From Polyangia bacterium (GTDB lineage Bacteria > Myxococcota_A > Polyangia > Haliangiales > JADYYK01), in contig JBGASF010000046.1 of the NCBI GenBank assembly GCA_044229835.1, positions 1-49,689 of the forward strand: a DNA stretch of 49,689 nt. The letters run 5' to 3'. Shown here in pieces: positions 15,847 through 49,689 of the stretch. How positions within the stretch are numbered: the stretch's first letter is position 1; the number at the start of each line of letters is the position of its first letter. The position numbers and the translations under genes were made by a program. The notes below the pieces were generated by a model. It worked only from the letters and a program-made list of their open reading frames with translations, did no database searches and had not been told where the DNA came from.

Positions 15847-16259
15847 GTGGCGAAGCTGATGCGCGTGTTCGACCGCTGCCGCACTCCGCGCGGCCATGCG
15901 CAAGACGCTCCGCCTCGCCGTGATCGACTGCGATCATGGACATCGTCGTGTCTGCACCACCACCACTGCCACGCAAGGCGCCCAGCAACACCCTGGCGGC
16001 GGCGGCCTGACAACTCGGACTCGTCTTCATCCACCCTGCCGTGCGGCGCCTGCTGCCCGGACCGGTGGAGCGCTGGCGAGCACCGCATTCACCCGCTCCG
16101 ATTCGCCTCGGGGTGGCAAACCTACGGGATCACGAGAGCCGATCGAAACAGTGCCGGCGAGAGAACCGCGCAACACCAGCACTCCCGAGGCGATGACATC
16201 ACCGGGAGGGAACTACGCGGGCCAACGGCGTTCCTCAGTCGGACAGAAACCCTCGCTCT

Positions 16260-34990: not shown

Positions 34991-36056
34991 TTACTTCGTG
35001 ACCTTGAAGGGGCGGGGGTGCTTGGTGGTGCCGGCTTCGGTGGTGAGGGTGAAGGTGGCGTCGGTGGTGTCGGGGGGGATCATGACGGTGACCGAGGTGT
35101 CGCCGGTGCGGGCCAGGACCTTGAGGGTGCGATCGCCGTAGGTGACCTTGGTGGCCTCGGTGAAGCCGGTGCCGGTCAGGGTCACGCGGGTGGTGGCGGG
35201 GCCCGAGGCGGGGGCGAAGTCGAGCAGCTTGGGCGGGGCGAGGACGACGAAGGGCGTCCCGAAGTCCACCACGGCCTTGCCGCGGCGGTGCTGGAACTTC
35301 GCGGTGACCGCGTTCTTCGGCAGCGTGGCCACGATGGACTTGGCGGTCAGGCGCTGGATCTCCAGCGGGCGGGTGCCCAGCCAGAGCTCGTCGCCGGCCT
35401 GGAAGTTGGCGCCGGTCAGCGTGACGGTGACGCCGGGCAGGCCGCGCGGCGGCTCGAAGCCGGTGATGGTCGCGGGCAGCACCAGCGTGAAGGGGCCGCT
35501 GGCGACGGCGCGCCCGCTGGGGTTCTCGATGCTGAACAGCTCGCCGGTGGCGGCGTCGGTGGGGACCTGGACCTTGAGCGTGGTCGGGGTGCGCTCGCGG
35601 ACGATCAGCGCGGTCTTGCCATAGCTGACCTTGTCGGTCGCGCTGGTCTCGGCCAGCGTGAGGGTGACCACGGTGCCGGGCGGGCCCGCCGAGGGCACGA
35701 AGGTCGACAGCACCGGGGCCGCGGGCAAGAGCTCGAAGGCGGGCTGCACCAGCAGCGGGCGGCTGCTGCCGCGCGTGATGGCCAGCTCGCCGCTGGCGGC
35801 GCCCCTGGGGATGGTCAGCTCGATCCGCGTCGGCTGGATGGTCGCGCTGACCGGCGCGCCGCCCACGCTGACGACGTCACCGGGCAGAAAGCCCGAGCCG
35901 TCGAGCACCACCTTGGTGCCAGGCGGCCCCTTCAGCGGGGCGAACCCGGTGACCCGCGCCGGCTCGACGATGGAGACCCAGCGCCCCGTCCACGGCCATG
36001 CCGCAGCCACACTCGAGGTCGCCAGCAGGACCCCGAGAACCGCCAGCCTTTTCATC
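34991..36056 (-). CDS. Secreted protein with tandem IPT/TIG (Ig-like) domains.
   Basis: Signal peptide MKRLAVLGVLLATSSVAAAW. Repeated ...TGF.P..G.PGT.V.L.G.GF... Ig-like units. GGAGG RBS. The track ORF's extended N-terminus overlaps a tRNA and is rejected. Confidence 0.7.
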
Positions 36057-36074
36057 GCAAACCTCCGCAAGGGG

Positions 36075-36146
36075 AGGTGCCGCCCGGATTCGAACCGGGG
36101 AATAGAGGCTTTGCAGGCCTCCGCCTTACCACTTGGCCACGGCACC
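36075..36146 (-). tRNA. tRNA-Cys (anticodon GCA).
   Basis: 72 nt. 7-bp acceptor stem GGTGCCG/CGGCACC, D-loop AGTGGTAA, anticodon loop CUGCAAA, T-arm GGTTCGAATCC, discriminator U. CCA not encoded. Confidence 0.85.
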
Positions 36147-36260
36147 GTGGTCAGAAACGAGGCGCAGTATATGCGGGGAGGGCAGGGTGTCAACGCCGCG
36201 ATGCAACTGAGTTATCGTAGCGACCAGGCCAGCGCAGGCCACGACAGGACCCGACAGGAC

Positions 36261-37364
36261 ATGGACTCTCCCATCCAGGATGCCGAGGTGGTGCGTCGCG
36301 GCGCCGAGCTGGCCGAGCTGGGCCGGCAGCTGGCGCGTCTCGGCCTGAGCCCCGAAAAGGTGCTGACCTTCACCGGGGCGCTGTCACTGGGTGACCTGTC
36401 GCGCGCCATCGACGACACCGCCCGGCGCGCCAGCAAGCTGCCCCGACCGCGCGGGCTGGGGGCGCTGATCGCGCTGCTGTGCTGTGGCCTGGCGCAGTCG
36501 GCGGCCGAGCTGGAGGCCGTGCTGGGGGCGCCCGCGCTGGCGCTCCTGGAGGCGGTCGGCGTGCTGGAGCGCGCGGGCGCCGACCTGGTGCCGCGGCTGG
36601 CGCTGGTGCCGGCGCAGCGCCGCCTGGGGGCGCGCGCCGGGCGCGCGGTCGGGCCGGTGGTGCTGGTCGCCCATGATCTGCACCGGCTGCGCTTCGAGTC
36701 GCTGGCGGTGATGGCGCCCGATCTGTCGTCGGAGCTGATGCTGCGCGCCAGCATCACGCGTGCGGGCAGCTGGCTCGACGTCGGCACCGGCAGCGGGGTG
36801 GTCGCGCTGGCGGCGGCGCTGCGCGGCACGCCGCGGGTGATCGCGGCCGATCTCAACCCGCGGGCGGGCGCCTTCGTGCGCCTGGGTGCGGCGCTGAACG
36901 GGGTCGCCGGCGCGGTGACCGCGCTGGAGTCCGACCTCATGCAGGCGGTGCCGCCGGGGCGGCATGACGTCATCACCTTCAACTCGCCGCTGCTGTTCGG
37001 CATGGGCGACCTGCTGTGGCGCAACACCGCGGAGGGGCCGGCGCTGCTGCGCCGCTTCTTCGATGACCTCGCGCCCCGGCTGGCCGGTGAGGCGCTGATC
37101 CACGCCCAGCTGCCGCACGACGAGCGCGTGCTGCCCGCGCGGGTGCCGATGACCGATCCCGCGCGCTTCCACGGCCTCAGCCTGCGCTACGAGCTGGGCG
37201 AGGAGTGGGCCCAGGGCCTGCTCTGGCTGACGCCCGCCGGCGGCGGCCGCGCCATCTGGGTCGAGGAGCTGCACGAGCCCACGCCCGAGCAGCTGTTCCT
37301 CGATCGCGAGCAGCTCGAGATCGCGCTGGCGCGCAACGAAATGCGCTCGCCCGTGGCCACGTAG
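36261..37364 (+). CDS. Class I SAM-dependent methyltransferase (MTS/PrmC-like small-domain type).
   Basis: Motif I LDVGTGSGVVALAAA. Post-motif DLNPRA reminiscent of N-methyltransferases. Real start MDSPIQ... (ATG 36261) within track ORF 35631..37364. Confidence 0.6.
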   Translation: MDSPIQDAEVVRRGAELAELGRQLARLGLSPEKVLTFTGALSLGDLSRAIDDTARRASKLPRPRGLGALIALLCCGLAQSAAELEAVLGAPALALLEAVGVLERAGADLVPRLALVPAQRRLGARAGRAVGPVVLVAHDLHRLRFESLAVMAPDLSSELMLRASITRAGSWLDVGTGSGVVALAAALRGTPRVIAADLNPRAGAFVRLGAALNGVAGAVTALESDLMQAVPPGRHDVITFNSPLLFGMGDLLWRNTAEGPALLRRFFDDLAPRLAGEALIHAQLPHDERVLPARVPMTDPARFHGLSLRYELGEEWAQGLLWLTPAGGGRAIWVEELHEPTPEQLFLDREQLEIALARNEMRSPVAT

Positions 37365-38626: not shown

Positions 38627-39424
38627 ATGTTCGGTCTGCGCGGTGGTGCCCGGCCTGCCAATGACGCCCGTGGGGTGAGCCCGGGCGAGCGGCCCCGCTG
38701 GGGGCGCGCCGGCGGCCGGCCGCTGGTGATCGGCCACCGCGGCGCCTCGGCGCGGGCGCCCGAGAACACGCTCGCGGCCTTCGCGCTGGCGCGGCGCGAG
38801 GGCGCCGATGGCGTCGAGCTCGACGTCATGCGCTGCGGCTCGGGCGAGCTGGTGGTGTTCCACGACTGGGACCTCGAGCGGCTGGGCCAGCGCCCGGGCA
38901 AGGTGGCCCGGCTGCCCCTCGAGGCGCTGCGCGAGGTCGACCTCGGCGGCGGCGAGCGCATCCCCCTGCTATCCGAGGTGCTGGAGCAGCTCGGGCCCGA
39001 CATGCTGGTCAACGTCGAGCTCAAGGTGCGCGGCTCCGGCGTAGGCGGCGAGCTGGCGGCGCCGGTCGTCGGCACGCTGCGCCGGCACGCCATGGGCGCG
39101 CGGGCGCTGGTGTCGAGCTTCCACCCGCTGGAGCTGGCCCGCGTGCGCGCGCTGGCGCCCGACGTGCTGACCGGCTACCTGTTCCACGCCGAGCAGGCGC
39201 TGCCGCTGCGCCGCGCCTGGCCGGCGTGCTGGCTGCGCCCGGCGGCGATGCACCCCGATCGCCAGCTGGTGTCGGAGCCCGCGGTGGCGCGCTGGCACCG
39301 CCGCGGCATGGCGGTCAACGTGTGGACGGTCGACGAACCAGGGCCACTGCGGGCGTTCGCGGCGATGGGCGTGGATGGTTTGATCACGAATGATCCAGCA
39401 GGCGCGCGGGCGGCGCTGGCCTGA
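38627..39424 (+). CDS. Glycerophosphodiester phosphodiesterase family protein.
   Basis: GDPD motifs [19 protein letters not shown] and GADGVELDV. Confidence 0.8.
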
Positions 39425-39438
39425 GCACGAGCACGAGC
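39421..39438. repeat. Short (GAGCAC)x2.7 microsatellite between convergent genes.
   Basis: Direct reading. Confidence 0.7.
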
Positions 39439-39445
39439 CGGTGCG

Positions 39446-41878
39446 CTAGTAGTCGCCGCTGCCGCCGCCCTGCGACAGGCCGCGCAGCAGGTTCTGCGCC
39501 GCGACGTCGACCGGGCCCAGCAGGTCGACCACGTCCTCGACGTGCTTGCCGAACTCGGCGGACTGGTTGTACATGCGCTTGATGCGCTTGAACTCGGTCT
39601 CGCCGACGCCGAAGCCGGCGTAGTCGCGGCCGTCGCCGCGCCAGCCGATGGTGCCGTTGAAGAACTCGAGGATCTCGCGCGGGGTGCAGTCGGTGCGCGA
39701 GCTCATCGCGGCGCGCGCCAGCGCGACCACCTCGCGGACCGACGAGGTCAGGAGCATCACGGTGGCGTAGCGCTCGCCCGGCTTCTTGCCCGCGGGCGCC
39801 GGCGCCAGCCCGGCGCCCTTGAGCTTGGCGTCGTCGCGCGCGACGCGATCGAGCTGCTCGCCGAGCTTGAGGTACTCCTCGCGGCGCTGCGCCACCTGCT
39901 TCTGCAGCGCGTAGGCCTTGGTGGCGTAGGTCTCGACCGAGACGCGGTACTTGGTGGCCTGCTCCTTGAGCTTGAGCGCCCCGCTGACCTGCGAGATCTG
40001 CGCGCAGTGGGTCTCGACCGCGTAGATCTTGGCGCGCAGCGAGTTGACCTCGCTGGCGAAGTAGAAGTCGGCGATGGCGTTCATGGCGCCGCCGATGCTG
40101 GTCGGCAGCGTGAAGCCGCCGTCCTGCTCGTACGAGGTGTTGCGCCCGTCCTCGCCCGGCTTCTTGGAGACGTCGAGATCGGTCTTGGTCTGGACGTTGC
40201 GCACGATGATGGCGCCGTCCTTGTTGGTGGTGGTGTAGGTCGGGTTCCAGCGCGCCGGCTTGCCCGCCATGATGGCGCGCTTGTTGCGCCCGGCGTTGAT
40301 GGTGGCGCCCATCATGTTGACCTTCTCGGTGGCGTTGGCGATGGCCGCGGGGGCGCCGTTGACCACCGCGGCGGTGGTGTCGATGGCGCTGCCGACCTGC
40401 TTGATGAAGGCCTTGGTCTTCTCGATCTCGCCCATGCGCTCGCGCGCGCCGTCGGCCTCGTGGTTCTTCTTCTCCTTGTCGAGCTCGAGCATGTGCTGCT
40501 GGAAGCCGAGGAAGTCGGCCTGCATGGCCTTGTGCGCCATGGTGGCCTCCATGGCGGAGGTGGTCACGTCGTGGCCCTGCGAGGGCTCGGCCAGGTGCTC
40601 GGAGGCGTCGCGCGAGCCGGCGTTGTAGAGATCGCGGATGCGCTCGCCGACCGCGCCCGCGCCGGTGGCGGCGACCCCGGCGCCGGAGTCGCTGGCGTGG
40701 CCGAGCTCGCGGGTCAGGCCGGCGACCATGGCCGACACGTTGTGGCCGATGCCGAGCGCGTTCATCTGGCCCTGCAGGCGCGTCATCGAGCCCCACACCG
40801 CGTTGGCCTGCGGCACCCAGGCGTTGAACCCGGTGAACTGCTGCTCCTCGGTGGTGCGGTCGCTGATGAGCTGGCGCAGCTTGCCCTCGAGGATCGGGAT
40901 GGCCTCGCCGGCCTGCTGCTTCTGCCAGTACATGTGCGAGCCGAACATGCCCTCGCCGCTGATCTTCTTGTTCTTCTCGATCTGGTTCTGCAGGTAGGTG
41001 CGGCCCTTCTCGATGGCCGAGAAGTCGGGCGCGACCTGGTGCAGCTGCAGCTCGTCGGGCGTCATGTGCAGGATCGACAGCTGCTTGCCCTCGTCGGCCA
41101 GCTCGACGGCCTCGCTGGCCGACTGCTTGAGCAGGGCGCCGCTGTAGCCGGCCTCGCCGGCGTGGATCTCCTGGTTGCCGTGGATCGGCATGGCCTCGGT
41201 GGGGCCGCCGATGCCGGGATCGGCGCCGACGTTGGCGTTGACGTTCTCCTTGCGCATCATGCGCGCCACGCCGCTGGCGCCGGCCGACACCTGCGCGGGC
41301 GCGCCCAGCACCATGCGGTCGGCGGCGGCGTCGGCCTCGAGCTCGAAGGCGTCACCGGGGGTCGACACCTGGGCCTTGCCGGCGGGCACCGGGGCGGCGC
41401 CGCGCTGCTGCACGGTGTGGGCGACCTCGTGCGCGAGCAGGGCCTCTCCGCCGCGCGAGCCCGGCGTGTACTCGCCGGCGCCGAAGTGGATGTCCTGGCC
41501 GAACGCGAAGGCACGCGCGCCCAGGGCGTCGGCGGCGCCGGCCGACTCCGCGCCGGTGTGCACGCGCACGCCGCCGAGGTCGGTCCCCAGCGAGCCCTCG
41601 AACTTGCTGCGCAGGCCGTCGGGCAGCTGCACGCCGCCGCCGGTGGGCACGCTGTCGACCGCGCCGGCGCTGGTGTCGGCGCCGGGGGCGGAGGCGGCAG
41701 CGCCGTCCTTGGCCTGGCGCTGTACGATCCCGTCGGCGAGGGTGCGCCGTCCCGGGGGCGCGCCGTTGCTGTTCTCGGGCGACTGCTTGGACTCGACCTC
41801 GTGGTTTGCCGACTGCTGATAGCGCATGGCCGCTGCTAGAGCAGCCGGCGTGCCCACAGGGGCCCACGCGGTTTCCAC
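39446..41878 (-). CDS. Large DUF4157 (zincin-like, HExxH) domain protein with about 600 aa of uncharacterised C-terminal region; candidate polymorphic-toxin/eCIS-type effector.
   Basis: Region LPDGLRSKFEGSLGTDLGGVRVHTGAESAGAADALGARAFAFGQDIHFGAGEYTPGSRGGEALLAHEVAHTVQQRG matches the DUF4157 consensus including HExxH. Start GTG 41878 or ATG 41827. Confidence 0.65.
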   Translation of the reverse strand: METAWAPVGTPAALAAAMRYQQSANHEVESKQSPENSNGAPPGRRTLADGIVQRQAKDGAAASAPGADTSAGAVDSVPTGGGVQLPDGLRSKFEGSLGTDLGGVRVHTGAESAGAADALGARAFAFGQDIHFGAGEYTPGSRGGEALLAHEVAHTVQQRGAAPVPAGKAQVSTPGDAFELEADAAADRMVLGAPAQVSAGASGVARMMRKENVNANVGADPGIGGPTEAMPIHGNQEIHAGEAGYSGALLKQSASEAVELADEGKQLSILHMTPDELQLHQVAPDFSAIEKGRTYLQNQIEKNKKISGEGMFGSHMYWQKQQAGEAIPILEGKLRQLISDRTTEEQQFTGFNAWVPQANAVWGSMTRLQGQMNALGIGHNVSAMVAGLTRELGHASDSGAGVAATGAGAVGERIRDLYNAGSRDASEHLAEPSQGHDVTTSAMEATMAHKAMQADFLGFQQHMLELDKEKKNHEADGARERMGEIEKTKAFIKQVGSAIDTTAAVVNGAPAAIANATEKVNMMGATINAGRNKRAIMAGKPARWNPTYTTTNKDGAIIVRNVQTKTDLDVSKKPGEDGRNTSYEQDGGFTLPTSIGGAMNAIADFYFASEVNSLRAKIYAVETHCAQISQVSGALKLKEQATKYRVSVETYATKAYALQKQVAQRREEYLKLGEQLDRVARDDAKLKGAGLAPAPAGKKPGERYATVMLLTSSVREVVALARAAMSSRTDCTPREILEFFNGTIGWRGDGRDYAGFGVGETEFKRIKRMYNQSAEFGKHVEDVVDLLGPVDVAAQNLLRGLSQGGGSGDY

Positions 41879-41967
41879 GGGTTACCGCGGGTTGCCCCCT
41901 GGCCCAGCATGGCCTGGTCCGTGAACCACCCGCGCTGGTGCAGCCCACGGGGGCGACCGCCACAGCG

Positions 41968-42864
41968 TCAGCGCGGCGGCAACAGGTGGTCGATCAGGGC
42001 ACGCGCCGCCGCCGAGCGTCGCGGCGTGGCGGGGTAGATCAGCGAGAAGGGGCGGCTGGCGCCGCGGTGGTCGCGCAGCACCTCGACCAGGAGGCCGCGC
42101 TCGACGGCGTCCTTGACCAGGAAGTCGTAGCTCTGGATGAGGCCGAGGCCGGCGCGGGCCAGGGTGACCAGGGCGACGACGTCGTCGGAGCAGCGCACCG
42201 GGGCGGGTGGAGTGAAGGCGCGGGGCCCGGGCAGGAAGCTCCAGGGCAGGGGGCGGCCCGTGCTCGGCATGGTGAAGGTGATGCAGGTGTGATCGACGAG
42301 CTGCGCCGGGGTGCGCGGGGCGGGGTGGCGCGCCAGGTACGACGGCGCGGCGTAGACCCCGAGCGGGAAGTCGCCCAGCTTGCGCGCGATGAGGCCCTTG
42401 TCACGGATGAGGCCCTGGCGGATGGCGAGGTCGAAGCCCTCCTGGGTGAAGTCGATGTTGCGGTTGCCGATGTGGAGGTCGAGCTCGATGGCGGGATAGC
42501 GCTCGCGGAAGGCGGCCAGCGCGGGCAGCAGGCGGTGGTGGCCGAACGAGGTCGGCGCGCTCAGGCGCACCACCCCGGCGTGGACGCCCCCGCGCGCGGC
42601 GACCTCGTGCTCGGCGAGCTCGAGCAGCGCGAGCGCTTGCTTGGCGGCGCGGTAGTAGGCGTGGGCCTCGTCGGTGGGCGTCACGGTGCGCGTGCTGCGC
42701 CGGAACAGGCGCACGCCCAGGGTGTCCTCGAGGCGGACGACGCTGCGGCTGGCCGCCTGCGGGGTCACGCCGAGCTGGCGGGCGGCCCTGGAGAAGCTGC
42801 CCAGCTCGAAGGCGGCGCAGAAGGTGAGGAGGTTGGGCAGGGTCGATTGCAGCGCCATGGTCAC
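41968..42864 (-). CDS. LysR-family transcriptional regulator.
   Basis: N-terminal wHTH (LLTFCAAFELGSFSRAARQLGVTPQAASRSVVRLE) plus LysR substrate-binding domain. Divergent from the DJ-1 gene. Confidence 0.85.
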   Translation of the reverse strand: MTMALQSTLPNLLTFCAAFELGSFSRAARQLGVTPQAASRSVVRLEDTLGVRLFRRSTRTVTPTDEAHAYYRAAKQALALLELAEHEVAARGGVHAGVVRLSAPTSFGHHRLLPALAAFRERYPAIELDLHIGNRNIDFTQEGFDLAIRQGLIRDKGLIARKLGDFPLGVYAAPSYLARHPAPRTPAQLVDHTCITFTMPSTGRPLPWSFLPGPRAFTPPAPVRCSDDVVALVTLARAGLGLIQSYDFLVKDAVERGLLVEVLRDHRGASRPFSLIYPATPRRSAAARALIDHLLPPR

Positions 42865-42977
42865 TTGTACATCGATGGTACAGGTGATGTGCGATTGTCA
42901 CCACTACTGCGCGGCGCCGCCAGGAGGCATCTTGCTCTCACCGGGCACACACGACCGGCAAGGCCAAGGAGAGAGCC

Positions 42978-43667
42978 ATGACGACGACGACGACCCAGAA
43001 GCGCATCCTCATCGCCACCACCAGCCATACCCAGCTCGGCGACACCGGCAAGCCCACCGGGGCCTACCTGGCCGAGGTCGCGCACCCCCACGCGGCCTTC
43101 GTGCGCGCCGGCCATGGCGTGGAGTTCGCCAGCGTACGGGGTGGCCAGATCCCGCTCGACGGCGTGGCCGACGCCGACGCCGGAAGCCGCGCCTTCCTGG
43201 AGGCCCACGGCGCCGAGCTGGCCAGCAGCCAGGCCGCGGCGAGCGTCGACCCCGCGCGCTATGACGCCATCTTCTTCGCCGGTGGCCACGGCACCATGTG
43301 GGATCTGCCCGAGGACGCGGCGTTCCAGCGCGTCGCGGCGGCGATCTACCAGCGCGGCGGCGTGGTCGCCGCGGTGTGCCACGGCCCGGCCGCGCTGGTG
43401 AACCTGCGCCTCGCGGATGGTCGCTACCTGGTCGATGGCAAGCGGGTCAGTGCCTTCACCAACGAGGAGGAGCGCGCGGTGAAGCTCGAGGGCGTGGTGC
43501 CGTTCCTGCTCGCCGATGCCCTGGTCGCGCGCGGCGCCCAGCACGTGCCGGCGCCCAGCTGGAAGTCGCACGTGGTGGTCAGCGAGCGGCTGGTGACGGG
43601 GCAGAACCCGGCGTCGGCGACGGGGGTGGCGGAGGCGGTGGTCAAGGTGCTGGCGGGTGAAGCCTGA
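42978..43667 (+). CDS. DJ-1/PfpI (class I glutamine amidotransferase-like) family protein.
   Basis: Nucleophile elbow AAVCHGPAAL. Overall ThiJ/HchA-like pattern. Confidence 0.75.
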   Translation: MTTTTTQKRILIATTSHTQLGDTGKPTGAYLAEVAHPHAAFVRAGHGVEFASVRGGQIPLDGVADADAGSRAFLEAHGAELASSQAAASVDPARYDAIFFAGGHGTMWDLPEDAAFQRVAAAIYQRGGVVAAVCHGPAALVNLRLADGRYLVDGKRVSAFTNEEERAVKLEGVVPFLLADALVARGAQHVPAPSWKSHVVVSERLVTGQNPASATGVAEAVVKVLAGEA

Positions 43668-43668
43668 G

Positions 43669-43716
<48 letters not shown>

Positions 43717-43735
43717 GCGCCAGGGCGGCCGGGGG

Positions 43736-45628
43736 TCAGCGTGGACGCAGGGTCAGGATCTCGTGCGGTTCATCGAAGCCCTTCAGGCGCCTGGCGAAGC
43801 TGTGGCTGGGCTCGGCCTCGGCGGCGGCGACGCGGGCGACCTCGGGGCGGGTCGAGAGCTCGGTCAGCAGCGCGACCTCGTTGGCGCCGGCCTGGGCCTG
43901 CAGGCGGGCGGCCAGGTTGACGGTGGTGCCGAAGAAGTCGAGGCGGCCGTTGGCGCGCACGGCGAGGCAGGCGCCCTCGTGGATGCCGACGCGCACGGCG
44001 AGGTCGGGCACGCCGCGCGCCGCGGCCGACCTGCCGACCTCGCGCGCCATCTCGAGGCCGGCCGACAGCGCCCGCGCCGGCGAGGTGAAGGTGGCCATCA
44101 CGGCGTCGCCCATGGTCTTGACCACCGCGCCCTGGTGCGCCGCGATGACCGCCGAGACGTCGCGGAAGTGGGCCTGCACCAGGGCGAAGGCGCGGGCGTC
44201 GCCGATGCGACGGTACAGCGCCGTGGTGCCGGTCAGGTCCGAGAACAGCACCGCCAGGTGGCCCACCGTCAGGTCCAGCCCGACCGCCGGGGCCTCGGCC
44301 GAGAACAGGTCGATGAACTCCGGGAAGGTCGCCAGCAGGGTGCCGGGCACCGCGTCGGAGGGGAAGTCGGCGCGCTCGAACAGCAGGGTCAGCGGCACCG
44401 AGGTGCTGTTGCTGCACGCCAGGGTGGTGCTGCCGTCCTGGCTGTCCTCGCTGGCGCGCGCCAGCAGCAGCCCGGCGTCGGTGACCTCGACCTCCACCGC
44501 GCGCGGCGCCGGGTGCGCGGGCAGCAGGGCACGGCGCTGGCCCGCGCGCACCAGCAGCCCCCCGGGCGGCAGCGCCAGCTGCAGCGCGCGGCGCTCCCCG
44601 GCCTCGAGCCGGACGCCGGCGAACAGCTGGGGGCGATGCCAGGGCGAGGCCGCGCAGAAGACGCTGGGCCTGACCGGGCGCAGCGCGGCGTTGACGCTGA
44701 AGGTGGCCTCGACGTTGGCGGCCAGGTCCAGCTCGAAGGCGATGTCGCAGTCGGCGCAGTGCGCGCGCCGGGCCAGCTGGTCGAGGCTGGTCGCGACCTC
44801 GGCCCCGACCCGGCACACCGGGCAGTCGAGCTGCCAGCGCAGGTCGACCAGGCCGGCGCGGGTGGCGTACAGGAAGCCGCGCACGACGTCGCGCTCGTCG
44901 GCGCTCCAGGCCCGCGCCAGCTCCAGCGGACGCAGCTGGGTCAGCTCGTCGTCCGCGCGCGTGCGCAGCAGCTCGACGATGCGGTCGCGCACCTCGGGCC
45001 GCACCGGCGCCTCGGCGAAGCGGCCAGCGCAGAACGCGAAGGGCTCCTCGGCCAGCGCCGAGGACGGGCCGTTCCACGCCGGGTCGGCCCCGCTGGCCCA
45101 CAGGAAGCGCCGCGCCTGGCGCAGCGCGGGCTCGTCCCGGTCGGCCGTGGCCGCCAGCGCCGCCGCGCCGCCGCGCTCGAGCACGCCGGCCAGCGCCTCG
45201 ACGTGGCGCACCAGCGCCTGCCCGGTGCGCTCGATCATGGCCGCCGCCAGCTCGGCGGGCAGCATCGGTGCGCGCTCGATGTACGAGCGCACCTCCAGCC
45301 GGGTGCCGCCGGCCTCCGCCGCCACCGTGTAGGCGTAGCCGCCGCGCGCCACCGGCCCGGTCAGGAAGCGGCGCTCGGCGGTCAGGCGCTGGCCCTCGAC
45401 GCCGTCGCCGATCTCCAGCCAGGACACCTCCATGCCCATCACGCGGGTGCGCCCGACCTGCGCCCGCGTGCGCGGATCGGCCGGGTCGATGAGCTCGTAG
45501 CTGTAGCTCGACTGCTTGAACCCGATGGCGCGATCCCAGCGATTGGAGTCGGCCATCAGCGCCCACACCAGCCCCGGGGGCCCCGGCAGCAGGCGCGACA
45601 CCTGGGTCTCGTAGAGGAGCTGGCTCAC
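43736..45628 (-). CDS. Class III adenylate/guanylate cyclase with N-terminal SRPBCC-like ligand-binding domain and a CxxC...CxxC zinc-ribbon-like element.
   Basis: C-terminal catalytic domain (LAVLFSDLTGTTALYRR..., VKTMGDAVMATF, RVGIHEGACL...FGTTVNLAARLQ). N-terminus YETQVSRLLPGPPGLVWALMADSNRWDRAIGF looks like a Bet v1/START strand. CPVCRVG...CADCD in the middle. The upstream 183 aa of the track ORF is junk. GTG start overlaps upstream TGA. Confidence 0.75.
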   Translation of the reverse strand: MSQLLYETQVSRLLPGPPGLVWALMADSNRWDRAIGFKQSSYSYELIDPADPRTRAQVGRTRVMGMEVSWLEIGDGVEGQRLTAERRFLTGPVARGGYAYTVAAEAGGTRLEVRSYIERAPMLPAELAAAMIERTGQALVRHVEALAGVLERGGAAALAATADRDEPALRQARRFLWASGADPAWNGPSSALAEEPFAFCAGRFAEAPVRPEVRDRIVELLRTRADDELTQLRPLELARAWSADERDVVRGFLYATRAGLVDLRWQLDCPVCRVGAEVATSLDQLARRAHCADCDIAFELDLAANVEATFSVNAALRPVRPSVFCAASPWHRPQLFAGVRLEAGERRALQLALPPGGLLVRAGQRRALLPAHPAPRAVEVEVTDAGLLLARASEDSQDGSTTLACSNSTSVPLTLLFERADFPSDAVPGTLLATFPEFIDLFSAEAPAVGLDLTVGHLAVLFSDLTGTTALYRRIGDARAFALVQAHFRDVSAVIAAHQGAVVKTMGDAVMATFTSPARALSAGLEMAREVGRSAAARGVPDLAVRVGIHEGACLAVRANGRLDFFGTTVNLAARLQAQAGANEVALLTELSTRPEVARVAAAEAEPSHSFARRLKGFDEPHEILTLRPR

Positions 45629-46170
45629 GGCGCGCCCAGGCCCGGCGGCGTCGCGGCGTCGGGCCGGCTGATGGCGGCGTCGCACACCTTCATGGTGCAG
45701 TCGGCGCTCTGGTTGGCGCCCACGCAGCGGCAGGTGTTGCAGTCGACCGGGTAGGTCTCGCCGGCCTCGTAGTACCTGCCGGCCTGCGCACAGCCACACA
45801 GGGCGCCGCGCGCGGTGGTCCCGCCGGCGCCGACCGTGACCTCGACCGGGACGCCCAGGCTGCCGATCACCAGCCCCTCGCGCGCCTCCTCGGCGCACAG
45901 CTCGATGCGCACGCGCGCGCCCAGGGCGTCGCCGACGGCGCTGATGGTCGCGACGCCGCGCTGCGCGGCCAGCCGCTCGTGGTGCGCGGCGACCACGTCC
46001 TGCACGTGGCGCAGCGCGTTCAGGCCGGCGGCCACGGCGGCGTCCATGGTGGGCGGGCCGGAGGCCGAGGGGGCCGGCGTCTGCGCGCGACCCGACCGGC
46101 GCCGGCAGGCTGGCACGGCGAGCTCGACCAGCAGCAGAATCGCGAGCACAAACGGGGCTCTCGCGCGCAC
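45625..46170 (-). CDS. Secreted protein with signal peptide and a C-terminal 8-Cys module, translationally coupled to the cyclase.
   Basis: Signal peptide MRARAPFVLAILLLVELAVPA. C-terminal ...CGC...CNTCRC...CTMKVC. GTGA overlap with the downstream gene start. Occupies a different frame from the junk N-extension of the cyclase ORF. Confidence 0.5.
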   Translation of the reverse strand: MRARAPFVLAILLLVELAVPACRRRSGRAQTPAPSASGPPTMDAAVAAGLNALRHVQDVVAAHHERLAAQRGVATISAVGDALGARVRIELCAEEAREGLVIGSLGVPVEVTVGAGGTTARGALCGCAQAGRYYEAGETYPVDCNTCRCVGANQSADCTMKVCDAAISRPDAATPPGLGAP

Positions 46171-46292
46171 GTCCGCACGTTAGCACGGCCTCGGTTGACG
46201 CCCGCTCAGGAAGCGGTCAACCTAATCGCCCCGTTTGGCTGGACGCGCATCGCTAGAACAGCCCCGGGACGATAGCGCTGGGAGGGGATCTG

Positions 46293-48854
46293 ATGGACGA
46301 GCGGACGCAGAAGCGGGACCTGGTGCTCGCACCGAGCGAGTACGCCTATATGCAGGACGTCACCAAGGGCATCATCAAGACGTACACCGGCCCGACGGTG
46401 ATCAACCCGACGGCGCAGGAGCGCCCGGTGCTCTTCAACACGCAGAAGAAGCGCTTCGAGGGCTGCACCCTCGAGCAGGCCGTGCAGCAGGCGGCCATCG
46501 CGCCCGAGGGCTACTACCTGGTGGTGAAGAACCCGTCGGTCAAGGGTGATCACCCGGTCGCCGGCGGCGTCTACCCGTCGCCCGACCTGCACGTCGGCCG
46601 CAAGATCAACATCACCGGGCCGTGCGACTTCGCGCTGTGGCCGGGCCAGATCGTCAAGCTGGTCCAGGGCCACCACCTGCGCTCGAACCAGTACCTGCTG
46701 GTGCGCGTGTACAACGAGGAGGAGGCGCGCGGCAACTGGCGCAAGGCCGTGGTCAAGCCGGCCGCCGCCGAGGCCGGCGCGCCCGAGACCGTGGGCGCGC
46801 CGCCGCCGACCCTGCGCGTGCCCAGCGATCTGACCGTGGGCAAGCTGCTCATCATCAAGGGCACCGATGTGTCGTTCTACATCCCGCCCACCGGCGTCGG
46901 CGTGGTGCCCGACGAGGGCGGCCAGGTCTACGTGCGCGACGCCCTCACGCTGGAGCGCCTGGAGTACTGCATCCTGGTCGACCAGAACGGCAAGAAGCGC
47001 TACGAGCGCGGCCCCCAGGTCGTGTTCCCGGAGCCCACCGAGACCTTCATCACCAAGGACGGTCATCGCAAGTTCCGCGCCCTCGAGCTGAACGAGATCC
47101 AGGGCCTGCACATCAAGGTCATCGCGCCCTACGAGGAGGCCGGGCGGCGCTACAAGGAGGGCGACGAGATCTTCATCACCGGGAAGGAGACCGCGATCTA
47201 CTTCCCGCGCGAGGAGCACTCGCTGGTGCGCTACGACGGCAAGGACAAGCACTTCGCCGTCGCGGTGCCCGCGGGCGAGGCGCGCTACGTCATGAACCGC
47301 AAGAGCGGTGAGATCCGCATGACGCTGGGGCCGGCCATGCTGCTGCCCAACCCGACCGACGAGGTCATCGTGCGCCGTGTCCTGACCGACAAGGAGTGCA
47401 TGACCTGGTACCCGGGCAACGACGAGGCGCTGGCCTACAACCGCAGCCTGCGCCAGGTCGCCATGCACGCGCCGACCACGCGCGCCGGCGTGGTCTCGGA
47501 GGGCGACTACGAGCGCAGCCAGCGCCGCGGCGGCCAGCAGAAGCAGGGCGCGATGGCGGCCTCGGTGGCGATGGAGGGCAGCTCGGTCAGCAAGGACAGC
47601 GCCGCCATGATGGGCGACGTGCTGGAGCGCGGCTCCAACTTCACCCAGCCGCGCACGCTGGTGTTCAACACCAAGTACGAGGGCGTGCCCTCGGTCAACG
47701 TCTACGTCGGCTACGCCGTGATGGTGATCGACAAGAAGGGCCACCGCCGTGTCGAGCAGGGGCCCAAGAACATCCTGCTGCAGTACGACGAGACGCTGGA
47801 GGTCATCGAGCTGTCGACCGGCAAGCCGAAGTCGACCGATCGGCTGATCCTGACGGTGTTTCTGCGCGTGCTCAACAACAAGGTCGGCGACATCTGCGAG
47901 GTCGAGACCTCGGATCACGTGCGCGTGCGCCTGACCTACTCGCTGCGGGTCAACTTCGAGGGCGATCCGGACCGCTGGTTCGAGGTCGAGAACTACGTCA
48001 AGTTCCTGTGCGATCACGTGCGCTCGGTGCTCAAGGGCGCGGTCAAGCGCCACTCCATCGAGGCCTTCTACGCCGGGTCGGTCGACCTCTTGCGCGACAT
48101 CATCCTGGGCAAGAGCAGCGACAAGGGCGAGCGCGCGGGCATGAAGTTCCCCGAGAACGGCATGCACGTGACCGACGTCGAGGTGCTGGCGGTCGAGATC
48201 GACGACGCGCGGATCGCGGCGCTGCTGGCCGAGGCGCAGCACGAGGCGGTGGAGTCGAACATCACGCTGCTGCGCGCCAACCGCGGCCTGGAGGTCACCC
48301 GGCGCAAGGAGGAGATCGCGCGCCAGGAGGCCGAGGCCAAGACCGCGACGCTCAAGCGCAAGGCCGAGCTGGAGGTCGAGGAGACCGCCAGCAAGCTGCG
48401 CACGGTGCTGGCCGGGATCGGGGCCGAGATCGCGCAGCATGACGAGCGCAAGAAGGCGGCCGAGGCCAAGAACGCCGGCGTCGACGTCGAGCACAAGGCG
48501 CAGCTCGAGCGCGATCGCTCGGTGGCGGTGTTCAAGCAGGAGGTCCAGAAGAGCGAGCAGGCCATCCGCCTGGCCGCGCTGGAGGCCGACGCGCAGAACG
48601 CCATCAAGCGCTTCCAGGCCGCGCAGGCGGGCTTCTCGGAGGCGCTGCTGGCGGCGTCGAACAACGAGCTGCTGGTCAAGGTGGCCGACGCCATGAGCGT
48701 GCAGCACTTCATCGGCGGCAAGACGCTGACCGACGTGGTCGACCGCATCTTCGCGGGCACCCCGCTGGCGGGGCTGATGGAGCGGGTCAAGGACCGGGTC
48801 ACCAGCAATGGTGGCGCGCGGCTGTCGGCCCCGCCGGCGACGCCGAGCAAGTGA
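46293..48854 (+). CDS. Major vault protein (MVP) homologue: N-terminal MVP repeat domains, shoulder (SPFH/band-7-like) domain and C-terminal cap-helix coiled coil.
   Basis: Collinear similarity to eukaryotic MVP. N-terminus LAPSEYAYMQDV...GP...ERPVLF...YYLVVKNP compared with human IPPYHYIHVLD...GP...ERVLF...HYCTVANPV. Shoulder region LSTGKPK...ETSDHVRVRLTYSLRVNFEG...FLCDHVRSVLKGAV compared with LSAGRPK...[20 protein letters not shown]...ACKAIASRVRGAV. Long C-terminal helix ending ...GKTLTDVVDRIFAGTPLAG. Host-like GC. Confidence 0.8.
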   Translation: MDERTQKRDLVLAPSEYAYMQDVTKGIIKTYTGPTVINPTAQERPVLFNTQKKRFEGCTLEQAVQQAAIAPEGYYLVVKNPSVKGDHPVAGGVYPSPDLHVGRKINITGPCDFALWPGQIVKLVQGHHLRSNQYLLVRVYNEEEARGNWRKAVVKPAAAEAGAPETVGAPPPTLRVPSDLTVGKLLIIKGTDVSFYIPPTGVGVVPDEGGQVYVRDALTLERLEYCILVDQNGKKRYERGPQVVFPEPTETFITKDGHRKFRALELNEIQGLHIKVIAPYEEAGRRYKEGDEIFITGKETAIYFPREEHSLVRYDGKDKHFAVAVPAGEARYVMNRKSGEIRMTLGPAMLLPNPTDEVIVRRVLTDKECMTWYPGNDEALAYNRSLRQVAMHAPTTRAGVVSEGDYERSQRRGGQQKQGAMAASVAMEGSSVSKDSAAMMGDVLERGSNFTQPRTLVFNTKYEGVPSVNVYVGYAVMVIDKKGHRRVEQGPKNILLQYDETLEVIELSTGKPKSTDRLILTVFLRVLNNKVGDICEVETSDHVRVRLTYSLRVNFEGDPDRWFEVENYVKFLCDHVRSVLKGAVKRHSIEAFYAGSVDLLRDIILGKSSDKGERAGMKFPENGMHVTDVEVLAVEIDDARIAALLAEAQHEAVESNITLLRANRGLEVTRRKEEIARQEAEAKTATLKRKAELEVEETASKLRTVLAGIGAEIAQHDERKKAAEAKNAGVDVEHKAQLERDRSVAVFKQEVQKSEQAIRLAALEADAQNAIKRFQAAQAGFSEALLAASNNELLVKVADAMSVQHFIGGKTLTDVVDRIFAGTPLAGLMERVKDRVTSNGGARLSAPPATPSK

Positions 48855-48877
48855 CGCGGCGCTGAGCGAGGCGAGCG

Positions 48878-49445
48878 GTGAGCACAGCAGGAGGCCTTGC
48901 GATCTCGGAGCGCGGCACGCTGATCATCCCGAGCGGGCGTGCCGCGCTGCCGTTCCTGAAGGACGAGTGGAGCCATGGCGGGTTGACGCTGTGGCCCAAG
49001 GCCGAGCACCACTTCACGGTGTTCGGCTTCTCCATCGGCAAGCACCTCGGCAAGGCGCGCGCGCTGCCCGGCTTCATCGACTGGGTCAACGCGCGCATCG
49101 CCGAGCACGACTGGAGCTGGCGCCTGGGCCAGCAGTGCTTTCACCTGCGCCAGCCCGAGCCGCGCGCGCTGGACACCGTGGTGGTGCGCATCGAGGCGGG
49201 GATCGCGGCGTTCTTCGCCAAGGTGGAGGCCGAGGCGCGCACGCGGGGCGCCAGGCCCGAGCTGCTGGAGGCGCTGGCCGCGCCGCCGCCGCCGCACGTG
49301 ACGCTGTACACGAGTGATCGCGAGGGCAAGCAGGGCATCGGGCTGAACCGGGTGGCCGACCTGGAGGCGGCGATCGCGAGGGGCAGGGCGGGGGATGCCA
49401 GCGGGCTGTGTGCGGTCGAGGTGCCGGCGGCGGCGGTGCTGGGGT

Positions 49446-49447
<2 letters not shown>
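48878..49447 (+). CDS. Putative 2H phosphoesterase-superfamily protein (LigT/cyclic phosphodiesterase-like), immediately downstream of the MVP homologue.
   Basis: Two H-x-T/S-x motifs in the expected contexts: HFTVFGFSIG and HVTLYTS. About 190 aa. 23-nt gap after the MVP stop. Confidence 0.45.
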
Positions 49448-49556
<109 letters not shown>

Positions 49557-49584
49557 TGATGGCGGTGGGTGGTGGTGGTGCGGG

Positions 49585-49644
49585 GGCTGCGGCCGACCTT
49601 GCGTGGCGATTGGGGGCTGGTGCCGGGTTCGGCGGCGGCAGCTT
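49585..49644. repeat. Copy B of the ~60-bp repeated noncoding element, followed by an interrupted hairpin (15 bp of pairing, 9-nt loop) at 49639-49677.
   Basis: About 90% identical to 15787-15846. CAGCTTGCG...CGCAAGCTG arms with an inner CGCCAGC/GCTGGC. Confidence 0.7.
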
Positions 49645-49689
49645 GCGCGCCAGCAAAGAGCGCTGGCACGCAAGCTGCGCGGGCCGCCT

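What the first reader, a model, noticed from the sequence alone, without database searches (positions are those of the whole stretch)
46293..48854. Full-length bacterial homologue of the eukaryotic major vault protein
The 853-aa product aligns collinearly with eukaryotic MVP across all three architectural parts: the N-terminal repeat domains, the shoulder domain and the cap-helix. Vaults are giant eukaryotic ribonucleoprotein shells, and bacterial MVP homologues are rare and functionally unexplored. Codon usage matches the host, so this is unlikely to be a recent eukaryotic contaminant. An ordered-assembly-capable MVP in a myxobacterium raises the possibility of a vault-like proteinaceous nanocompartment, for example for cargo sequestration during development or predation.
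Basis: partly seen in the sequence, partly recalled or inferred. Interest (0 to 1): 0.9.

Follow-up and report, generated by a model that had tools for sequence, protein, structure and literature searches.

The report
Myxobacterial major vault protein homologue
The gene is a real, intact bacterial relative of the eukaryotic vault shell protein, but it belongs to a large, already described family common in myxobacteria; the only possibly new detail is a small putative RNA/nucleotide-trimming enzyme gene beside it.

Summary
ORF 46293-48854 (+) encodes an 853-aa protein with host-like codon bias (GC3 0.97). It hits Pfam MVP_shoulder (8.7e-27) and Vault_3 (3.9e-9). A family profile aligns with human MVP end to end (hhalign 99.9%, E 9.8e-33, residues 1-821 vs 1-847, 23% identity).

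Three points need correcting:
- It has about eight repeat modules, not nine. One 55-residue repeat is missing and repeat 8 carries a ~60-residue insert.
- The structure model confirms only the shoulder and the 136-residue cap helix.
- Such proteins are not rare: more than 5000 hits, 1258 clusters at 50% identity. JGI already names them 'major vault protein'. Myxobacterial examples have been published in silico since 2013.

No vPARP, TEP1 or vault-RNA-like partner lies in the window.

Cage assembly is inferred, not shown. Verdict: a new member of a known kind, of moderate interest.

The parts
46280..46287 (+). Shine-Dalgarno-like GGGAGGGG, 5 nt upstream of the MVP start codon
   Evidence: Read directly from the sequence. 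No sigma-70-like promoter was found in 45500-49689. The 122-nt upstream region folds no better than shuffles, z 0.26.
46293..48854 (+). MVP-like gene, 853 aa including stop
   Evidence: ORF. GC3 0.97. Pfam MVP_shoulder and Vault_3. Only MVP chains hit in PDB. Full-length hhalign to human MVP, E 9.8e-33. Foldseek top 12 hits are all MVP, E 2e-17 to 1e-13.
46293..47873 (+). N-terminal repeat region, aa 1-527, about eight MVP-type beta-repeat modules: R1 1-72, R2 73-125, two short modules in 126-208, R6 209-263, R7 264-321, R8 322-446, R9 447-527. No counterpart of human R3.
   Evidence: Domain map from hhalign. Sub-profile comparisons show two alternating repeat types: R1~R6~R8~R9 (up to 88.7% probability) and R2~174-207~R7 (61-75%). 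Pfam detects only the last repeat, as Vault_3. The AF2 model is low-confidence here.
47445..47630 (+). Poorly conserved insert within repeat 8, aa ~385-446, partly helical or disordered. Absent from human MVP.
   Evidence: hhalign gap pattern. Mean top-residue frequency 0.25 against 0.6-0.7 in flanking repeats. pLDDT 25-58 across this segment.
47874..48203 (+). Shoulder domain (SPFH/band-7-like fold), aa 528-637
   Evidence: Pfam MVP_shoulder 8.7e-27. pLDDT mostly 72-89 (one block 63). 110 of 127 human columns aligned, 28% identical. After MVP, the next Foldseek hits are the SPFH cage proteins flotillin, prohibitin, HflK/C and stomatin.
48204..48623 (+). Cap-helix, aa 638-777. Predicted as one continuous helix, 639-774.
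   Evidence: AF2 secondary structure H639-774, pLDDT about 76-87 over most of it and lower (57-71) from ~aa 720. 140 of 156 human cap-helix columns aligned.
48624..48851 (+). Cap-ring-like region and C-terminal tail, aa 778-853
   Evidence: 41 of 43 human cap-ring columns aligned, but only 17% identical. pLDDT 34-62. The tail from aa 820 is poorly conserved.
48878..49447 (+). Downstream gene, 189 aa: a divergent 2H-phosphoesterase-like protein, probably co-transcribed with MVP (23-nt gap, same strand, no terminator-like site)
49004..49021 (+). First H-x-T motif of the 2H-like protein (E43 H44 H45 F T47 V), on a beta-strand
   Evidence: E43, H45 and T47 are invariant and H44 nearly invariant in 30 sequences. 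Strand E45-49 in the model.
49283..49312 (+). Second H-x-T motif (P136 PPP H140 V T142 L Y T145), on a beta-strand
   Evidence: P137, P139, H140, T142 and T145 are invariant in 30 sequences. Strand E140-145 in the model.

Best explanation
This is an intact, expressed-looking member of the bacterial branch of the major vault protein family.

Shown:
- Its architecture is about eight N-terminal MVP-type beta-repeat modules, an SPFH-like shoulder, a ~136-residue cap helix and a cap-ring-like end. It is collinear with human MVP but one repeat shorter, and repeat 8 carries an insert.
- It has no signal peptide or membrane segment visible in the sequence.
- It is under strong purifying selection across Myxococcota.

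Inferred from what all structurally solved relatives do (MVP, flotillin, prohibitin, HflK/C, stomatin):
- The shoulder and long helix drive self-assembly into a closed ring or dome in the cytoplasm.
- Two domes may pair through repeat 1 into a somewhat shorter vault-like barrel.

Inferred from gene order:
- In this lineage the shell gene is probably co-transcribed with a small 2H-phosphoesterase-like enzyme. That enzyme would act on a 2',3'-cyclic phosphate, a 2'-5' linkage or a cyclic-nucleotide-type substrate, as an accessory or cargo of the shell.
- This partner is facultative across the family, so it cannot define the core function.
For: - Homology: Pfam MVP_shoulder 8.7e-27 and Vault_3 3.9e-9. 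PDB hits are MVP only. Full-length hhalign to verified human MVP gives 99.9%, E 9.8e-33. Foldseek ranks 12 MVP structures first (E 2e-17 to 1e-13), then SPFH cage proteins (3e-6 to 1e-3).
- Internal repeats were detected independently of the human template.
- Shoulder and a single 136-residue helix are modelled at pLDDT mostly 76-89 (lower from ~aa 720).
- Native gene: GC3 0.97, Shine-Dalgarno-like sequence.
- Family size and conservation: 65-77% identity across MAGs labelled as different myxobacterial families; 625 clusters at 50% identity with E<=1e-30, the top 150 listed being mostly full length.
- When the window is compared with a 92-94% identical genome, the block 45675-49453 (a small lipoprotein-like gene, MVP and the 2H-like gene) is conserved while both flanks differ.
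Against: - No evidence of oligomerisation was obtainable here.
- The N-terminal repeats are modelled at low confidence, and Pfam misses all repeats but the last.
- The residues that form the human half-to-half waist contacts are not conserved.
- Of 13 human NAD+/ADP-ribose pocket residues, only K506, R504 and D521 have conserved or similar counterparts, so nucleotide binding cannot be transferred.
- The 2H-like gene is absent from most MVP loci (13 of the 71 MVP-carrying loci held have it).
- Five members of the 2H-like family lie away from any MVP gene within the flanks held. One of these is in a phage-like block.
Confidence: 0.6

Rival explanations
1. A single dome docked on the inner face of the cytoplasmic membrane, working like the other SPFH cages (HflK/C, flotillin, stomatin) to fence off a membrane patch, rather than a free closed barrel.
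For: - The shoulder has the SPFH fold, and the best non-MVP structural matches are membrane-abutting SPFH cages.
- One close homologue also carries a Band_7 Pfam hit (P0037).
- Sokolskyi 2019 reports that this bacterial clade is more band-7-like than eukaryotic MVP.
- A 2026 paper reports eukaryotic vaults associating with membranes in situ (PMC13100048, listed; abstract only read).
- The human waist-contact residues are not conserved.
Against: - The translation shows no transmembrane or hydrophobic N-terminal segment.
- About 520 residues of MVP-type repeats replace the membrane anchor of classical SPFH proteins.
- MVP structures score about 10 orders of magnitude better than SPFH cages.
Confidence: 0.2
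2. A non-assembling or loosely assembling cytoplasmic scaffold that binds nucleotides in the shoulder and sequesters them, as Sokolskyi 2019 proposed for bacterial MVP-like proteins.
For: - Human MVP binds NAD+, ADP and ADP-ribose between adjacent shoulders.
- The G-K-P-K 'keyhole' loop is retained: K513 is 100% conserved and N529 98% conserved in the family.
- A nucleotide- or RNA-end-processing-type enzyme is encoded next door.
Against: - Most pocket residues (R437, R507, H509, R511, W545, K573) are not conserved.
- In human MVP the pocket forms between two assembled subunits, so binding there presupposes assembly.
- The long cap helix is retained in the listed family members.
Confidence: 0.1
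3. Part of a mobile or anti-phage defence island, with the 2H-like enzyme acting on an immune nucleotide signal.
For: - Both flanks of the MVP/2H block differ between two 92-94% identical genomes.
- The window-specific flank carries an eCIS_core (DUF4157) protein and a nucleotide cyclase with weak PycC-model hits.
- The L050 flank carries an AAA_15/AAA_21 ATPase.
- MVP-like genes occur in huge phages and in viral contigs.
- Structural neighbours of the 2H-like protein include the anti-CBASS enzyme Acb1 and a poxvirus cGAMP phosphodiesterase.
- The vault component TEP1 was recently reported to be a TIR-like NADase related to an anti-phage system.
Against: - Neither protein hits any PADLOC model.
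- The MVP gene itself is conserved at 65-77% identity across myxobacterial families with changing neighbours, as expected of a vertically inherited core gene rather than a shuffled defence gene.
- There is no match in plasmids.
- The PycC hits are generic similarity among class III cyclases.
Confidence: 0.08
4. Eukaryotic contamination or a recent eukaryote-to-bacterium transfer.
For: None beyond the family name.
Against: - 23% identity to human MVP.
- GC3 0.97, like the neighbouring genes.
- Embedded between typical bacterial genes.
- Hundreds of diverged bacterial relatives.
Confidence: 0.01

Closest known systems
Eukaryotic major vault protein (rat/human MVP; PDB 4V60, 4HL8, 9BW5, 11DR)
   Same: Collinear domain order: tandem beta-repeats, SPFH-like shoulder, long cap helix, cap-ring. 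hhalign E 9.8e-33 over residues 1-821. MVP structures are the top structural matches. The G-x-P-K loop of the shoulder is retained.
   Different: - 23% identity.
- About eight repeats rather than nine: no R3 counterpart, short R4/R5 region.
- ~60-residue insert in R8, and a cap helix ~16 residues shorter.
- Waist-contact residues and most NAD+-pocket residues are not conserved.
- No PARP4, TEP1 or vault RNA counterpart in the window.
- Assembly is unproven.
Previously reported bacterial MVP-like proteins (Plesiocystis pacifica A6FXM1/A6FXE2, Enhygromyxa salina A0A0C2D5V5, Corallococcus H8MNI3, Saprospira H6L4P8; Daly 2013, Sokolskyi 2019)
   Same: Same phylum for the myxobacterial examples, similar length, same Pfam signature, about 25% identity to eukaryotic MVP as reported by Daly. 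JGI names the close homologues 'major vault protein'.
   Different: I did not align the window protein directly with those UniProt entries, because they were not retrievable here. That it belongs to the same clade as the Nannocystineae/Bacteroidota type is inferred from identity levels and MAG labels.
SPFH (band-7) cage proteins: HflK/C, flotillin, prohibitin, stomatin, erlin
   Same: Shoulder fold plus a long C-terminal helix that forms the wall and roof of a ring-shaped cage. These are the second tier of structural hits.
   Different: They are membrane-anchored and lack the ~520-residue MVP repeat region. Their E-values are 10 or more orders of magnitude weaker than for MVP.
Asgard archaeal and phage MVP homologues (Nat Microbiol 2026, PMC12962969; bioRxiv 10.1101/2023.11.10.566534)
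   Same: Prokaryotic or viral MVP-like proteins with cap helix, shoulder and a reduced number of repeats. Relatives 41-54% identical to the window protein occur in huge phages and viral contigs.
   Different: The Asgard protein is reported to have five repeats. The viral contigs have 52-56% GC and phage-type neighbours, including topoisomerase II and an endolysin-like gene.
2H phosphoesterase superfamily (LigT/ThpR, CPDase, Usb1, Acb1, AKAP18, coronavirus ns2) - for the downstream gene

Membership tests
Major vault protein family (Pfam Vault repeats + MVP_shoulder) | SPFH-like shoulder domain (PF11978) | tested here: met
   8.7e-27, 93.9 bits against a cutoff of 25, covering profile positions 2-118 of 118. 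pLDDT mostly 72-89 (one block 63).
Major vault protein family (Pfam Vault repeats + MVP_shoulder) | Tandem N-terminal MVP beta-repeat domains (nine in vertebrates) | tested here: met
   - Profile alignment covers human R1, R2 and R4-R9, with a 55-residue gap at R3.
- Internal repeat similarity reaches 88.7% probability.
- Pfam detects only Vault_3, the last repeat.
- The count is about eight, not nine.
- The fold is not confirmed by the model, which has low pLDDT here.
Major vault protein family (Pfam Vault repeats + MVP_shoulder) | Long cap-helix following the shoulder | tested here: met
   A single helix 639-774 at pLDDT about 76-87 over most of it, lower (57-71) from ~aa 720. 140 of 156 human columns aligned.
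Major vault protein family (Pfam Vault repeats + MVP_shoulder) | Cap-ring domain closing the particle | tested here: inconclusive
   41 of 43 columns aligned, but at 17% identity and pLDDT 34-62.
Major vault protein family (Pfam Vault repeats + MVP_shoulder) | Self-assembly into a two-halved barrel (39+39 copies in mammals) | not testable with these tools
   No multimer prediction or experiment was available. The human waist-contact residues are not conserved.
Vault ribonucleoprotein particle (MVP + PARP4 + TEP1 + vault RNA) | Presence of PARP4-, TEP1/TROVE- or vault-RNA-like partners | tested here: not met
   - No PARP, TROVE, VIT or vWA domain was found in any window gene scanned.
- Rfam finds only a tRNA at gathering threshold and nothing credible near the gene.
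- The rest of the genome was not available.
- A VIT+vWA protein lies near MVP in another clade, but it has a signal peptide.
Vault NAD+/ADP-ribose binding site (Lodwick 2025) | Basic pocket residues R437, R504, K506, R507, H509, R511, D521, W545, K573 | tested here: not met
   Only K506->K513 (100% in the family), R504->K511 (60%) and D521->N529 (98%) are conserved or similar. The other residues differ.
2H phosphoesterase superfamily (downstream gene) | Two H-x-T/S-x motifs | tested here: met
   H45-F-T47 and H140-V-T142 are invariant in 30 sequences.
2H phosphoesterase superfamily (downstream gene) | Bilobed alpha+beta 2H fold | tested here: inconclusive
2H phosphoesterase superfamily (downstream gene) | Match to a curated 2H family model (e.g. 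PF13563, PF02834) | tested here: not met
   No hit for the window protein at E<=10. One relative hits 2_5_RNA_ligase2 at E 0.022, below the cutoff.
2H phosphoesterase superfamily (downstream gene) | Phosphodiesterase or ligase activity | not testable with these tools
   Requires an enzyme assay.
Known anti-phage defence systems (PADLOC) | Match to a defence-system protein model | tested here: not met
   No hit for the MVP-like or the 2H-like protein.

The most novel reading that the evidence does not exclude
The MVP-like shell and the adjacent 2H-phosphoesterase-like enzyme form a bacterial vault-type compartment. The enzyme would be housed in, or recruited to, the cage, and would process an RNA 3' end or a cyclic or ADP-ribose-derived nucleotide.

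This would be a prokaryotic counterpart of two recently noted eukaryotic links: vault RNA as a substrate of the 2H enzyme Usb1 (PMC6265477), and NAD+/ADP-ribose chemistry inside vaults. Related shells in huge phages would then hint at a role in phage-host conflict.
Probability: 0.12. Interest if true: 0.8.

Novelty: new member of a known kind. Interest (0 to 1): 0.4.

Why it matters
Vault function is a 40-year-old open question, and no prokaryotic MVP has been studied experimentally. This gene shows nothing new about the family's existence. It does point to a very large, strongly conserved bacterial family that could serve as a simple system (one shell gene, no PARP4 or TEP1) for asking what the ancestral cage does.

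The recurrent 2H-phosphoesterase-like neighbour gives one concrete, testable biochemical lead. If bacterial MVPs assemble, they would also be a new class of prokaryotic protein compartment and a possible nanocontainer that can be expressed in bacteria.

Tried and rejected
- **NCBIfam:** no model for the protein.
- **PADLOC:** no hit for MVP or the 2H-like protein.
- **Rfam:** gathering threshold on the whole window gives only a tRNA. E-value mode around the gene gives only sub-threshold chance-level hits. The 5' leader is not unusually structured.
- **Promoter/terminator scan:** nothing.
- **AlphaFold with a 40-sequence alignment of close homologues:** a poor model of the repeat region (pLDDT 54).
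- **NAD+-pocket transfer from human MVP:** rejected, because most residues are not conserved.
- **Ser/Thr kinases near MVP:** present in 21 of 67 loci, but myxobacterial genomes are very rich in such kinases (my own knowledge). I treat the overall frequency as chance. Only the kinase-2H-MVP order in one clade, and a ~380-aa kinase downstream in another, look syntenic.
- **VIT+vWA protein near MVP in five loci:** rejected as a vPARP analogue. It has a signal peptide and the five loci form one narrow clade.
- **Window neighbours (cyclase, DJ-1, LysR, eCIS_core protein):** not conserved next to MVP elsewhere, and absent from a 92-94% identical genome.
- **Plasmid search:** no match.
- **Explicit phylogeny with eukaryotic MVPs:** not built. 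The remaining homology search would have returned mainly vertebrate sequences, so I rely on published trees.
Full report
**1. The observation**

The ORF at 46293-48854 on the + strand is real (853 aa, ATG start). GGGAGGGG lies 5 nt before the start codon. Third-position GC is 0.97, within the 0.86-0.98 range of the surrounding genes. The ORF ends 835 nt before the window edge. Hundreds of homologues have the same length and architecture, so a frameshift, chimera or contig-edge artefact is excluded.

**2. Is it an MVP homologue?**

Pfam gives MVP_shoulder at 8.7e-27 (aa 528-638, full profile coverage) and Vault_3 at 3.9e-9 (aa 478-523). Vault, Vault_2 and Vault_4 are not detected, and NCBIfam has no model. 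Against all PDB sequences, the only hits are MVP chains: 2.6e-16 with the single sequence and 1.8e-24 with a family profile.

To test collinearity over the N-terminal half, I wrote out human MVP from memory and verified it as identical to PDB 11dr_A over residues 1-893. A profile of 40 close homologues aligned only from query 217 onwards (99.3%). A profile of 143 diverse representatives (40-54% identical to the query, Neff 4.5) aligned locally over query 1-821 and human 1-847. That alignment has 99.9% probability, E 9.8e-33, 712 columns and 23% identity.

Foldseek with the AlphaFold model ranks 12 MVP structures first (E 2e-17 to 1e-13). SPFH cage proteins follow at 3e-6 to 1e-3: flotillin, prohibitin, HflK/C, stomatin and erlin. 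The homology claim is therefore secure.

**3. Anatomy and how it differs from vertebrate MVP**

Mapping the rat/human domain boundaries through the alignment gives:

| Domain | Query residues | Note |
|---|---|---|
| R1 | 1-72 | 14-residue insert |
| R2 | 73-119 | |
| R3 | essentially none | 6 of 54 columns; a 55-residue gap |
| R4/R5 | 126-208 | a further ~29-residue gap; Pro/Ala-rich linker |
| R6 | 209-263 | |
| R7 | 264-321 | |
| R8 | 322-446 | ~60-residue insert, poorly conserved, low confidence |
| R9 | 447-527 | |
| Shoulder | 528-637 | |
| Cap helix | 638-777 | 140 of 156 columns |
| Cap-ring | 778-819 | 17% identity |

Sub-profile comparisons made without the human template show two alternating repeat types. 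One type is R1~R6~R8~R9, up to 88.7% probability. The other is R2~(174-207)~R7, at 61-75%. The protein therefore has about eight repeat modules rather than nine.

The AlphaFold model (mean pLDDT 54) is confident only for R1, the last repeat, the shoulder, and one uninterrupted helix at 639-774 with pLDDT about 76-87 over most of it. The beta-fold of the middle repeats is thus supported by profile homology, not by the model.

Across the diverse family, R6-R9 and the shoulder are the best conserved parts. The cap helix, the R8 insert and the tail are the least conserved. The translation shows no signal peptide or hydrophobic segment.

**4. How common and how new?**

The word-indexed search returned 5007 proteins at E<=1e-3. 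The best 120 are all 65-99% identical and 798-888 aa long, from MAGs labelled Myxococcales, Polyangia, Nannocystaceae, Kofleriaceae or Haliangiales. Many are named 'major vault protein' by JGI. The exhaustive search of 50%-identity representatives found 1258 clusters at E<=1e-3 and 625 at E<=1e-30. The top 150 are mostly full length.

The literature already describes bacterial MVP homologues in silico:
- Daly et al. 2013 list Corallococcus, two Plesiocystis copies, Microscilla, Saprospira, Flexibacter and Herpetosiphon (PMC3762200).
- Sokolskyi 2019 analyses Enhygromyxa and others.
- Phage and Asgard homologues followed.

My searches found no experimental study of a bacterial MVP. So 'rare' is wrong and 'functionally unexplored' is right. 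This gene is a further member of a known kind.

**5. Genomic context**

The immediate upstream, divergent gene is most likely the 181-aa ORF 45625-46170 (-). It has a lipoprotein-like N-terminus and a Cys-rich pacifastin-like end, and it is shared with locus L050. The 816-aa 'cyclase' ORF is over-extended through it.

L050 is a MAG contig whose DNA is 92-94% identical to the window and whose MVP is 99% identical. It lacks window 39420-45674, which carries an eCIS_core/DUF4157 protein, LysR, DJ-1/PfpI and the cyclase. Homology also ends at 49453, just after the downstream gene. The block of lipoprotein-like gene, MVP and downstream gene is thus conserved between variable flanks.

None of the window's other neighbours recurs next to MVP in 66 related genomic loci. 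No PARP, TROVE, VIT or vWA protein is present in the window. No Rfam family other than one tRNA is present either.

**6. The downstream gene**

Gene 48878-49447 (+), 189 aa, begins 23 nt after the MVP stop codon, with no terminator-like site between them. It has no Pfam hit and belongs to a small family of 29 clusters.

Two H-x-T motifs (H45/T47 and H140/T142) are invariant in 30 sequences, and each lies on a predicted beta-strand. The AlphaFold model is very confident, at pLDDT 95.3.

**7. Linkage of the downstream gene to MVP**

In the window and 12 related loci, the gene lies on the same strand as MVP:
- Directly downstream of MVP in the window, L050 and L001-L004.
- Directly upstream in L007, L040, L071 and L072, where it is preceded by a ~1000-aa Ser/Thr kinase.
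- 2.4 kb upstream in L068-L070.

Four more distant members (L067, L073, L074, L076) have no MVP in the flanks held. A fifth (L075) sits in a phage-like run of small ORFs with Dam-like and NUDIX genes. A neighbour-joining tree places the MVP-linked members in two of four clades.

Most MVP loci lack the gene: 13 of the 71 MVP-carrying loci held have it. The link is therefore real but facultative. It suggests an accessory activity, not the core function.

**8. Mechanism**

- **Shown:** homology, domain order, conservation, native codon usage, gene adjacency.
- **Inferred, assembly:** every structurally solved relative with an SPFH-like domain followed by a long helix forms a closed ring or dome (MVP, flotillin, prohibitin, HflK/C, stomatin). 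The most likely behaviour here is therefore self-assembly into a cytoplasmic cage. It might be a barrel of two halves, somewhat shorter than the vertebrate vault because one repeat is missing.
- **Inferred, partner:** the 2H-like enzyme acts with the cage on an RNA end or a cyclic or ADP-ribose-type nucleotide.
- **Against transferring eukaryotic details:** the human waist-contact residues and most of the NAD+/ADP-ribose pocket are not conserved. Only K513 and N529 are near-invariant counterparts, and K511 is a partly (60%) conserved one.

**9. Rivals**

A membrane-docked single dome, a nucleotide-sequestering scaffold, and a defence-island element remain possible at lower probability. Contamination or recent transfer from a eukaryote is refuted.

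**10. Verdict**

The gene is a new member of a known kind. Interest is moderate. The family remains an attractive, unstudied route to vault function, and the 2H-like neighbour is a concrete lead. The gene itself is an ordinary representative of an abundant, already annotated family.

Noticed in passing
window 39420-45674 (compared with L050 8208-9396): A 6.3-kb block is absent from a 92-94% identical MAG contig, where about 1.2 kb of other DNA takes its place. The block carries an 810-aa eCIS_core/DUF4157 protein, a LysR regulator, a DJ-1/PfpI protein, and a nucleotide cyclase with DUF5939 and Polyketide_cyc2 domains. It is a strain-variable island right next to the MVP block. The cyclase gives weak hits to PADLOC PycC models (7e-12), which is probably generic class III cyclase similarity.
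   Followed up: partly
window 45625-46170 (-) and 43736-46186 (-): The 816-aa 'cyclase' ORF is over-extended. Its Arg-rich first ~190 residues overlap, out of frame, a 181-aa ORF with a lipoprotein-like signal and a Cys-rich pacifastin-like domain. That ORF is conserved in L050 and is the true divergent neighbour of the MVP gene.
   Followed up: partly
window 49449-49555: A hexanucleotide tandem repeat (ACGAGC, 15.8 copies, 95% matches, then CGAGTT x2.7) starts one base after the stop codon of the 2H-like gene, in frame with it. It would read (D/H)-E repeats. It is absent from L050, and homology between the two genomes ends here.
   Followed up: partly
window 49638-49678: A 17-nt inverted repeat, 94% complementary with a 7-nt loop, lies near the window end.
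   Followed up: no
window 36075-36146 (-): A tRNA gene (68 bits) lies inside the long + strand ORF 35625-37364. The methyltransferase gene there must therefore start downstream of the tRNA.
   Followed up: no
window 16100-19000: GC falls to 0.57-0.64 against about 0.70-0.75 elsewhere. Two consecutive + strand ORFs lie here: 16260-17651 with no Pfam hit, and 17636-19036 with a PQQ_2/BamB-like beta-propeller. This may be acquired DNA.
   Followed up: partly
L010, L013, L014, L017 (e.g. L017 12633-15092); a 96-aa member of the same ORF cluster at the same position in L019: In one narrow MVP clade (MVPs 88-96% identical), an 813-891 aa protein with VIT, vWA and P_proprotein domains lies 0.9-4.7 kb downstream of MVP. 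PARP4 carries the same VIT+vWA pair. This protein has an N-terminal signal peptide, so it is probably exported and the adjacency is probably coincidental.
   Followed up: yes
LR756500.1 20982-23363; LR756501.1/LR756503.1 17581-19599; L077 3986-6613; L078 3986-6586: MVP-like ORFs 41-54% identical to the window protein occur in huge uncultured phage genomes (462 and 735 kb) and in two IMG/VR contigs with 52-56% GC. In both IMG/VR contigs a topoisomerase II large-subunit gene lies downstream, and L077 also has an endolysin-like gene upstream. No PHROG family matches the MVP-like protein.
   Followed up: partly
L029, L033, L039, L054, L060 (directly downstream of MVP); also L023, L036, L055, L059: In a Haliangiales/Kofleriaceae clade, a ~380-aa Ser/Thr kinase with a hydrophobic C-terminal segment follows the MVP gene on the same strand, 13-179 nt away in five loci. 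In another clade a ~1000-aa kinase precedes the 2H-like gene, overlapping it by 4 nt in L071.
   Followed up: partly
L075 4301-4855: A member of the 2H-like family sits in a phage-like array of about 20 small same-strand ORFs, with a Dam-like gene (a faint Pfam hit only) and a NUDIX gene and no MVP. The small enzyme family is therefore also found in mobile or viral contexts.
   Followed up: no
L050 13798-14820 (-): In the near-identical genome, the DNA after the 2H-like gene encodes an AAA_15/AAA_21 (OLD/AbiEii-like) ATPase. The window's own downstream region is cut off by its end.
   Followed up: no
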